Source: the human T2T-CHM13v2.0 reference genome, Homo sapiens. Taken from it: a DNA stretch of 64,000 nt. Position numbers and translations under genes: made by a program. Every line of letters begins with the position of its first letter. Positions within the stretch are counted from its first letter, which is position 1. Below the pieces are notes generated by a model that saw only the letters and a program-made list of their open reading frames with translations, ran no database searches and was not told where the DNA came from. Shown piece by piece: positions 9,301 to 9,394 of this stretch. Location: assembly GCF_009914755.1 (NCBI RefSeq), contig NC_060925.1. One strand, written 5' to 3'.

Positions 9301-9394
9301 TGCAACCAGGGGGCACTGCAATTAATTAGTGTCACAGTATCTTATAGAGTAGTAGACCAGCCCCTTAAACTTATGCCTCAAGACTGGTAGGATA
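9301..9394 (+). pseudogene. Intronic partial duplicate of CDC73 exon 14 (3' 82 nt plus donor)
   Basis: Matches 8319-8408 except a 4-nt AATT duplication, two substitutions in the exonic part, and donor GTAAGA changed to GTAGGA. Confidence 0.93.

What the first reader, a model, noticed from the sequence alone, without database searches (positions are those of the whole stretch)
9301..9394. Hidden second copy of the 3' half of CDC73 exon 14 with its own splice donor, ~1 kb downstream in intron 14
Seen: 9301-9386 reproduces the last 82 nt of exon 14 (8319-8400) plus the donor region. Differences are a 4-nt AATT duplication, T>C (equivalent to 8347), C>T (equivalent to 8354) and donor GTAAGA>GTAGGA, which keeps the GT. 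The copy crosses the exon/intron boundary, so it came from DNA or unspliced RNA, not spliced mRNA. It is dispersed rather than tandem and has no TSD or polyA. Inference: a local templated insertion left a splice-competent half exon in a tumour suppressor intron. The low divergence suggests a primate-age event.
Basis: partly seen in the sequence, partly recalled or inferred. Interest (0 to 1): 0.8.

Follow-up and report, generated by a model that had tools for sequence, protein, structure and literature searches.

The report
Half-exon copy inside CDC73 intron 14
A 94-base piece of the CDC73 gene, made of the end of exon 14 and the first bases of the next intron, really is repeated about 1 kb further into that intron, but it looks like an ordinary decayed scar of DNA repair rather than a working exon.

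Summary
Window 9301-9394 repeats 8319-8408, the last 82 nt of CDC73 exon 14 plus 8 nt of intron 14. Of 94 alignment columns, 87 are identical (blastn E 1e-34).

The copy has a sharp 5' edge inside codon Met412. Its 3' edge runs into a (TC)13(CA)22 and AT-rich microsatellite. There is no similarity beyond either edge and no target-site duplication or poly(A).

The 892-nt spacer looks like resident intron: its 660 non-Alu bases are single-copy in the genome. So the 94-nt piece is most likely the newcomer, a local templated insertion.

As coding sequence the copy is dead. The AATT insertion creates a TAG, and Pro424, invariant in 120 of 120 vertebrate homologues, has become Ser.

The donor-like GTAGGA still pairs with U1 almost as well as the real donor. 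No acceptor was copied, nearby AGs are weak, and 23 of 25 possible pseudoexons carry stops. Splice competence therefore holds for the donor only.

Age from 3 substitutions in 90 nt is very loose, 3-97 My at 1e-9 per site per year. Orthologues could not be reached.

Verdict: real, ordinary, a new member of a catalogued kind.

The parts
8319..8408 (+). Source segment: the last 82 nt of CDC73 exon 14 (8319-8400, from the TG of codon Met412 to the first two bases of codon Trp439) plus the first 8 nt of intron 14 (GTAAGATA).
   Evidence: The exon 14 translation equals parafibromin residues 386-438 of PDB 6ted chain X.
9301..9394 (+). The intronic copy: 94 nt, 87 of 94 alignment columns identical to the source, lying 982-986 nt downstream in the same orientation.
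9320..9329 (+). AATT doubled (9320-9327). In the exon's reading frame this gives ATT AAT TAG, with the stop at 9327-9329.
   Evidence: the frame comes.
9340..9342 (+). The codon equivalent to Pro424 now reads TCT (Ser). This is a derived change in the copy.
   Evidence: Pro at this position in 120 of 120 vertebrate homologues.
9387..9392 (+). Donor-like site CTG|GTAGGA, with intron position +4 changed A>G relative to the real donor at 8401-8406.
   Evidence: U1 duplex energy -7.7 against -8.0 kcal/mol; rank 4 of 173 GT sites in 8401-11500, counting the real donor.
9397..9614 (.). Compound microsatellite starting 2 nt after the copy: (TC)13 at 9397-9422, (CA)22 at 9422-9465, then an AT-rich array at 9465-9614. 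The source is followed by a miniature TCTCT(AT)n at 8410-8425.
   Evidence: TRF: both pure arrays are at 100%. Alignment.
8409..9300 (+). 892-nt spacer between the two copies. It holds an antisense Alu-like monomer (about 8484-8640). The remainder, 8641-9300, is single-copy in the genome.
   Evidence: one genomic match, itself; Alu-type hits; Metazoa_SRP below threshold, 8489-8605, minus strand.

Best explanation
The copy is a small dispersed direct duplication. About 94 nt spanning the exon 14/intron 14 boundary were copied from a template about 1 kb upstream and inserted into intron 14 at 9300|9395, beside or seeding a TC/CA/AT microsatellite. The most likely cause is break repair or a two-step replication template switch (MMBIR/FoSTeS type, or a class-2-like templated patch). 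The copy then decayed neutrally: a frameshift with a stop, Pro424Ser, and a weakened donor. It carries a donor-like site but no acceptor and no open frame, so it is most probably a silent intronic relic and not an exon. Shown here: the duplication, its edges, its coding decay, the lack of retrotransposition marks, and the uniqueness of the spacer. Inferred: that the insertion happened at a break, the role of the microsatellite, that the copy is not spliced, and its age of tens of millions of years.
For: The repeat is real and bounded. E is 1e-34. There is no similarity upstream of 8319/9301 (235 of 500 shuffles reach the score). There is none past the microsatellite either (467 and 497 of 500 shuffles reach it), and none between 8409-9300 and 9395-10600 (score 20 against a shuffle maximum of 23). 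The non-Alu spacer 8641-9300 has one genomic match, itself, so it is not a repeat-family insert or a piece copied from elsewhere. There is no target-site duplication and no A-run at the end of the insert. The intron bases were copied, so the template was unspliced. The 3' junction lies at TCTCT in the source and at (TC)13 in the target, which could be a microhomology. Coding decay: a TAG at 9327-9329, and Ser at the invariant Pro424 (120 of 120). No RNA family matches the copy; the only overlap is SCARNA7 at 19 bits against a gathering score of 65. Acceptors are weak, with pyrimidine fractions of 0.40-0.70 against 0.70-0.85 for the 4 annotated acceptors, and 23 of 25 candidate exons carry stops. 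The RefSeq table supplied with the finding lists no exon here.
Against: No outgroup sequence was available, so the ancestral arrangement is inferred from human DNA alone. The uniqueness of the spacer was tested on only 660 of its 892 nt. That search skips common words, and an old or lost source would be missed. The microhomology is short and sits in low-complexity sequence. A 7-nt AAGAAAA word lies near both left junctions (8305-8311 and 9293-9299) but is out of register, so it explains nothing. The donor remains strong by U1 pairing. No RNA-seq data could be consulted, so rare use as a poison exon is not excluded. At both exonic substitutions the C6 pseudogene carries the copy's base. Taken alone, that would suggest the copy keeps ancestral states. 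The Pro424 result contradicts this at one of the two sites. The other site, synonymous GTT/GTC, remains unpolarised.
Confidence: 0.65

Rival explanations
1. Two-step origin. A 982-nt tandem duplication of 8319-9300 was followed by deletion of nearly all of the second unit's intronic part, leaving only its first 90-95 nt.
For: The copy starts exactly one unit length (982 nt) after the source starts, so 9301 directly follows the end of the putative first unit. Tandem duplication is, from general knowledge, commoner than dispersed insertion. The TCTCT/(TC)n junction could be the deletion breakpoint.
Against: It needs two events. No trace of a second copy of 8409-9300 exists downstream: the local alignment against 9395-10600 scores 20 against a shuffle maximum of 23.
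Confidence: 0.13
2. The template was CDC73 pre-mRNA rather than DNA. A reverse-transcribed or directly used RNA patch repaired a break inside the same transcribed gene, as proposed for class 2 templated sequence insertions.
For: The copy has the same strand and the same transcription unit as its source and spans an exon/intron boundary, as unspliced RNA would. It lacks a target-site duplication and poly(A). These are the junction features given for class 2 TSIPs in the passages read from PMC5110952.
Against: Nothing in the sequence separates an RNA template from a DNA template. In those passages class 2 TSIs are described as coming from distant regions, whereas this template is only 982 nt away, which fits local DNA template switching more simply.
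Confidence: 0.15
3. The 892-nt spacer is the newcomer. It inserted at staggered nicks 90 nt apart, so that the two copies are an unusually long target-site duplication.
For: The geometry fits: direct repeats of about 90 nt flank an 892-nt block exactly.
Against: The non-Alu spacer is single-copy in the genome, so no source and no repeat family is known. The spacer ends show no poly(A) or poly(T). The site preceding 8319 (CCAGA|TG) is not the TTTT/A type that one search gives for LINE-1-mediated events. A 90-nt target-site duplication would be far beyond the usual size, which I state from recall.
Confidence: 0.05
4. The copy is functional. It could be a poison pseudoexon (for example 9245-9386, 142 nt) or a U1-binding decoy that tunes CDC73 output.
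For: The donor pairs with U1 at -7.7 kcal/mol, rank 4 of 173 GT sites. An acceptor-like TTGTTAGTTTTCAG|G lies at 9231-9244. Every longer candidate exon would introduce a premature stop, as poison exons do. From recall, the CU and CA repeats just downstream are binding motifs for PTB and hnRNP L.
Against: Acceptor tracts are weaker than all 4 annotated ones. GT retention is expected by chance at P = 0.93. Other unannotated GT sites in the same intron pair with U1 as well or better. RefSeq has no exon here. No paper links CDC73 with a pseudoexon (0 papers) or with a cryptic exon in this gene (6 papers held both terms and 5 were listed. In the one I opened, CDC73 appeared only in a reference title. 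The rest were judged from titles and abstract starts.).
Confidence: 0.05
5. The copy is an assembly artefact.
For: None found.
Against: According to the annotation supplied with the finding, the window comes from the T2T-CHM13 long-read assembly. The copies differ by 3 substitutions and a 4-nt indel and have unique flanks.
Confidence: 0.01

Closest known systems
Intronic or 'inter-boundary' exon-derived matches, as catalogued by exon-duplication surveys (Exonize, PMC12343006; Ivanov and Pervouchine 2022, PMC9013439)
   Same: An annotated coding exon has a homologous stretch in an intron of its own gene. The passages read define 'inter-boundary' and 'intronic' matches. They report 4,027 human intronic targets outside annotated exons and repeats, and that about 2% of human exonic nucleotides have a homologue at 80% identity or more in the parent gene.
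   Different: Here only half of the exon is copied and the piece includes intron bases. CDC73 is not named in the main text of either paper (0 occurrences). Their supplements could not be opened, so this case may already be listed there.
Class 2 templated sequence insertions (TSI/TSIP; PMC5110952)
   Same: A short templated patch with no target-site duplication, no poly(A) and no LINE-1 endonuclease site, consistent with break repair.
   Different: The template is local (982 nt away, same strand and same gene) rather than distant. Whether the copy is polymorphic is unknown, and RNA involvement is untestable here.
[quoted passage not shown]
   Same: A nearby template, direct orientation, and a possible TCTCT microhomology at the return switch, next to repeats that from recall are prone to stall replication forks.
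   Different: The microhomology at the first switch is not evident. The event is old and germline-fixed, so no mechanism can be demonstrated.
Tandem exon duplication giving mutually exclusive exons
   Same: An exon-derived sequence lies in the neighbouring intron in the same orientation.
   Different: It is not a whole exon (82 of 162 nt), it has no acceptor, and its frame is broken by a 4-nt insertion and a stop.
Processed pseudogene of CDC73 on contig C6 (L003:1413-2572)
   Same: It is another genomic copy of exon 14 sequence.
   Different: The C6 copy is spliced (exons 14-17 contiguous, 71% identity over 1286 columns). The intron 14 copy carries intron bases and so is not derived from mRNA.

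Membership tests
Tandem exon duplication / mutually exclusive exon pair | Copy of the whole exon with both splice sites | tested here: not met
   Only 82 of 162 exon nt are copied. The 5' edge is sharp inside codon 412, and there is no similarity between 8250-8318 and 9232-9300 (235 of 500 shuffles reach the score).
Tandem exon duplication / mutually exclusive exon pair | Reading frame preserved in the copy | tested here: not met
   The AATT insertion gives a TAG at 9327-9329.
LINE-1-mediated insertion (class 1 TSIP or processed retrocopy) | Target-site duplication of at least 5 bp | tested here: not met
   The longest word shared by the 30-nt flanks is 4 nt, and 133 of 1000 shuffles reach that length.
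LINE-1-mediated insertion (class 1 TSIP or processed retrocopy) | Poly(A) tail at the 3' end of the insert | tested here: not met
   The insert ends ACTGGTAGGATA and begins TGCAACCAGGGG.
LINE-1-mediated insertion (class 1 TSIP or processed retrocopy) | Derived from spliced mRNA (for a processed copy) | tested here: not met
   The copy continues into intron 14 with 7 of 8 bases matching, and does not continue into exon 15.
Class 2 templated sequence insertion (break patch) | No target-site duplication, poly(A) or endonuclease site | tested here: met
   definition taken.
Class 2 templated sequence insertion (break patch) | End-joining marks at the junctions (microhomology, microdeletion, untemplated bases) | tested here: inconclusive
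   There is a possible TCTCT microhomology and a 1-2 nt mismatch (G against AT) at the 3' junction, but it sits in low-complexity sequence. Nothing is clear at the 5' junction.
Class 2 templated sequence insertion (break patch) | Template in a distant genomic region | tested here: not met
   The template is 982 nt upstream in the same intron-exon unit.
MMBIR/FoSTeS template-switch insertion | Nearby template and microhomology at the switch points | tested here: inconclusive
   The nearby template is met. Microhomology is plausible at only one of the two junctions.
Pseudoexon / poison exon | Usable 5' splice site | tested here: met
   U1 duplex energy of -7.7 kcal/mol against -8.0 for the real donor, and against -4.5 and -8.1 for the other two annotated donors. 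MaxEntScan and SpliceAI were not available.
Pseudoexon / poison exon | Usable 3' splice site at exon-sized distance upstream | tested here: inconclusive
   25 AG candidates lie within 300 nt. Their pyrimidine fractions are 0.40-0.70, against 0.70-0.85 for the 4 annotated acceptors. This is only a crude measure.
Pseudoexon / poison exon | Splice-junction reads in RNA | not testable with these tools
   No RNA-seq resource was on hand. No paper was found on the point.

The most novel reading that the evidence does not exclude
The copy matters medically. One route is as the donor half of a latent poison exon, which a single deep-intronic variant creating an acceptor, or loss of a repressor on the adjacent CU/CA repeats, could switch on in mutation-negative hyperparathyroidism-jaw tumour families. 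Another route is as a source of false or real exon 14 variants: a 4-nt duplication that by my own arithmetic would be named c.1255_1258dup, plus p.Pro424Ser and c.1316+4A>G. These could arise through read mis-mapping or through rare gene conversion or recombination between the 90-nt repeats.
Probability: 0.05. Interest if true: 0.5.

Novelty: new member of a known kind. Interest (0 to 1): 0.18.

Why it matters
As biology it is a small, probably neutral repair scar. Exon-derived intronic fragments are already counted in the thousands in human genes. It has modest practical value. CDC73 is a clinically sequenced tumour-suppressor gene, and this near-identical 90-nt paralogue sits 1 kb from exon 14. 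It carries a frameshift-like 4-nt insertion, a missense-like change at an invariant proline and a +4 donor change. Short reads, capture baits or primers that cross-map could therefore mimic pathogenic variants. The retained donor is also a place to look when RNA from mutation-negative patients shows aberrant exon 14-15 splicing. Its junction with a compound microsatellite makes it a tidy example for studying templated insertion at repeats, once primate orthologues date it.

Tried and rejected
1. A larger hidden duplication was rejected. Local alignments of the upstream flanks, the downstream flanks and the sequence beyond the microsatellite are all at shuffle level.

2. A spacer copied from elsewhere was rejected at this sensitivity. 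8641-9300 has only its own match in the genome.

3. A retrotransposition origin was rejected: no target-site duplication, no poly(A), and intron bases are present.

4. The C6 processed pseudogene was tried as an outgroup. It shares the copy's base at both exonic differences. This lead was set aside for the Pro424 site because Pro is invariant in 120 of 120 vertebrate proteins. The synonymous site stays unresolved.

5. Orthologous DNA was sought through host contamination in public contigs. A degenerate exon-end pattern with 2-kb flanks found 0 stretches in genome contigs and 0 in viral contigs.

6. An RNA family at the copy was not found.

7. Literature searches found nothing relevant.
- CDC73 with pseudoexon: 0 papers.
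- CDC73 with intron 14: 2 papers, both judged irrelevant from title and abstract start.
- CDC73 with cryptic exon: 6 papers held both terms and 5 were listed. In the one opened, CDC73 was only in a reference title. The rest were judged from titles and abstract starts.
- Copy-derived variant names: 1 paper, where c.1270C>T belongs to CDK8.
- Duplication or insertion names: 4 papers held a term and 3 were listed, none about CDC73 by title.

9. MaxEntScan, SpliceAI and RNA-seq junction data were not available. U1 duplex energy and pyrimidine fraction served as crude substitutes.

Full report
**Observation.** The claimed repeat is in the sequence exactly as described. Reading both places and aligning 8000-8800 against the whole window gives one non-Alu, non-self hit with E below 1e-3. 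That hit is 8319-8408 against 9301-9394 on the + strand. It spans 94 columns with 3 mismatches and one 4-nt gap (92.55% identity, E 1.1e-34). The repeat finder returns the same two blocks, 24 nt at 100% and 71 nt at 96%. The differences are these:
- AATT is doubled at 9320-9327.
- T>C at 9333, equivalent to 8347.
- C>T at 9340, equivalent to 8354.
- A>G at 9390, which is intron position +4 and turns GTAAGA into GTAGGA.

With flanks included, a local alignment scores 81 against a shuffle mean of 10.2 and maximum of 14. As a small control, I compared all four CDC73 exon regions in the window with the window, using only the first 600 nt of exon 17. Only exon 14 has such a copy; the one other hit is a 24-nt match from exon 17 at E 8e-4.

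**Extent and edges.** The 5' edge is sharp, at 8319/9301 inside codon Met412. The 69 nt before the two copies do not resemble each other (235 of 500 shuffles reach the score). At the 3' end the match runs 8 nt into the intron, GTAAGATA against GTAGGATA. It then fades: the source continues GTCTCT(AT)n and the copy continues ATTCTCT into a pure (TC)13 array, a pure (CA)22 array and an AT-rich array reaching 9614. Beyond the microsatellite there is no similarity (467 and 497 of 500 shuffles reach the scores). The whole spacer 8409-9300 has no counterpart in 9395-10600 (score 20, shuffle maximum 23). So the duplicated unit is about 90-100 nt and not a hidden kilobase.

**Copies elsewhere.** The window's genome could be searched. 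A 121-nt query over the copy finds 3 places: itself, exon 14, and a site on contig C6. The C6 site is an old processed pseudogene. The spliced sequence of exons 14-17 aligns to it continuously at 71% over 1286 columns, and it follows the exon 14/15 junction rather than the intron. The non-Alu part of the spacer, 8641-9300, has one genomic match, itself. The rest of the spacer contains an antisense Alu-like monomer at about 8484-8640 (and a below-threshold Metazoa_SRP hit).

**What the copy encodes.** Exon 14 translates to parafibromin residues 386-438, identical to PDB 6ted chain X. In that frame the copy reads ...GCA ATT AAT TAG, with a stop at 9327-9329. The T>C change is synonymous (Val421). 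The C>T change turns Pro424 into Ser.

The C6 pseudogene carries the copy's base at both of these sites. That raised the possibility that the copy, not the exon, keeps the ancestral state. I tested this with protein homologues: Pro occupies this position in 120 of 120 vertebrate sequences listed, from sharks to primates. So the exon is ancestral there, the copy is derived, and the agreement with the pseudogene is a parallel change. The synonymous site stays unpolarised. The copy shows no sign of coding constraint.

**Splice competence.** Only a donor was copied.
- By duplex energy with the 5' end of U1 (a motif I recalled), the copy's CUG|GUAGGA scores -7.7 kcal/mol.
- The real exon 14 donor scores -8.0, and the other two annotated donors in the window score -4.5 and -8.1.
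- The copy ranks 4th of 173 GT sites in 8401-11500, counting the real donor.
- Two unannotated sites, at 8970 and 11344, do as well or better, so strong donor-like sites are not special in this intron.
- At 3.3% divergence a GT survives by chance with probability 0.93.

Upstream there are 25 AG dinucleotides within about 300 nt. Their pyrimidine fractions are 0.40-0.70, against 0.70-0.85 for the 4 annotated acceptors. Of the 25 candidate pseudoexons, 23 contain an in-frame stop. One of the two open ones is a 26-nt frame-shifting piece. 'Splice-competent half exon' is therefore true only of the donor. MaxEntScan, SpliceAI and junction reads were not available.

**Origin.** Retrotransposition marks are absent. 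The longest word shared by the flanks is 4 nt (133 of 1000 shuffles reach it), and the insert has no A-run. The copied intron bases rule out a spliced mRNA template.

Three geometries remain:
- (a) The 94-nt piece was inserted at 9300|9395.
- (b) The 892-nt spacer was inserted with a 90-nt target duplication.
- (c) A 982-nt tandem duplication lost almost all of its second unit.

The single-copy status of the spacer speaks against (b). The absence of any remnant of a second unit, and the need for two events, speak against (c). I therefore favour (a): a local templated insertion made by break repair or by two template switches, with the return switch possibly at the TCTCT/(TC)n microhomology.

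Two points cannot be told from human sequence alone. One is whether the microsatellite provoked the break or grew afterwards from the copied TCTCT(AT)n seed. The other is whether the template was DNA or CDC73 pre-mRNA, as proposed for class 2 templated insertions in the passages read from PMC5110952.

**Age.** Three substitutions in 90 aligned bases is 3.3%, with a Poisson 95% interval of 0.7-9.7%. At 1e-9 per site per year, a rate I recalled, and with all change placed on the copy's lineage, this gives 33 My (range 7-97). With change shared between both copies it gives 17 My (range 3-49). Slower rates double these figures. 'Primate age' is compatible with this but is not shown. A degenerate exon-end pattern found no orthologous DNA: 0 stretches in genome contigs and 0 in viral contigs.

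**What is known.** Exon-derived stretches in introns of the same gene are a catalogued kind. The passages read from PMC9013439 report 4,027 human intronic targets outside annotated exons and repeats. Exonize (PMC12343006) defines 'intronic' and 'inter-boundary' matches. CDC73 does not occur in the main text of either paper.

The literature searches gave the following:
- CDC73 with pseudoexon: 0 papers.
- CDC73 with intron 14: 2 papers, both irrelevant by title and abstract start.
- CDC73 with cryptic exon: 6 papers held both terms and 5 were listed. In the one I opened, CDC73 was only in a reference title.
- Variant names that the copy would mimic: 1 paper, where c.1270C>T belongs to CDK8.
- Duplication and insertion names: 4 papers held a term and 3 were listed, none on CDC73 by title.

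So I found no printed description of this copy in these 5 searches.

**Verdict.** The best reading is a decayed, probably silent templated insertion beside a microsatellite. It is a new member of a known kind and of low general interest. It carries a modest practical caveat for sequencing and RNA analysis of CDC73 exon 14.

Noticed in passing
L003:1413-2572 (G000 contig C6, about 81,060,814-81,061,973): An old processed pseudogene of CDC73. The spliced exons 14-17 of the window align to it continuously at 71% identity over 1286 columns.
   Followed up: partly
window 7841-8176 and 8484-8640: Exon 14 (8239-8400) is bracketed by Alu-type elements in opposite orientation. These are a + strand Alu upstream and an antisense Alu-like monomer downstream. 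The inverted arms are 8013-8078 / 8530-8595 at 73% complementarity and 7936-7981 / 8490-8535 at 76%. From recall, inverted Alu pairs around a single exon can favour exon skipping or back-splicing. This was not examined.
   Followed up: no
window 8970 and 11344: Two unannotated GT sites in intron 14 pair with U1 as well as or better than the real exon 14 donor: CUG|GUAAGAAA at -8.0 kcal/mol and GUG|GUAAGUAC at -10.5 kcal/mol.
   Followed up: no
protein P0001 (617 aa, named Cnephaeus nilssonii by its source), residues 340-392 and 524-571: This bat protein model contains the exon 14-encoded segment twice, at 85% and 79% identity to the human peptide, together with the following C-terminal region. 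It looks like a retrocopy-derived or mis-modelled locus and is unrelated to the human intronic copy.
   Followed up: partly
window 9397-9614: A compound microsatellite: pure (TC)13, then pure (CA)22, then a 150-nt AT-rich array with many internal palindromes. It is likely to be length-polymorphic and, from recall, prone to non-B DNA structures.
   Followed up: partly
proteins P0002-P0005 and others: Several short proteins predicted on small metagenome contigs (1.4-4.4 kb) are 96-100% identical to the human exon 14 peptide. They are presumably vertebrate host DNA assembled in metagenomes. I did not trace them.
   Followed up: no
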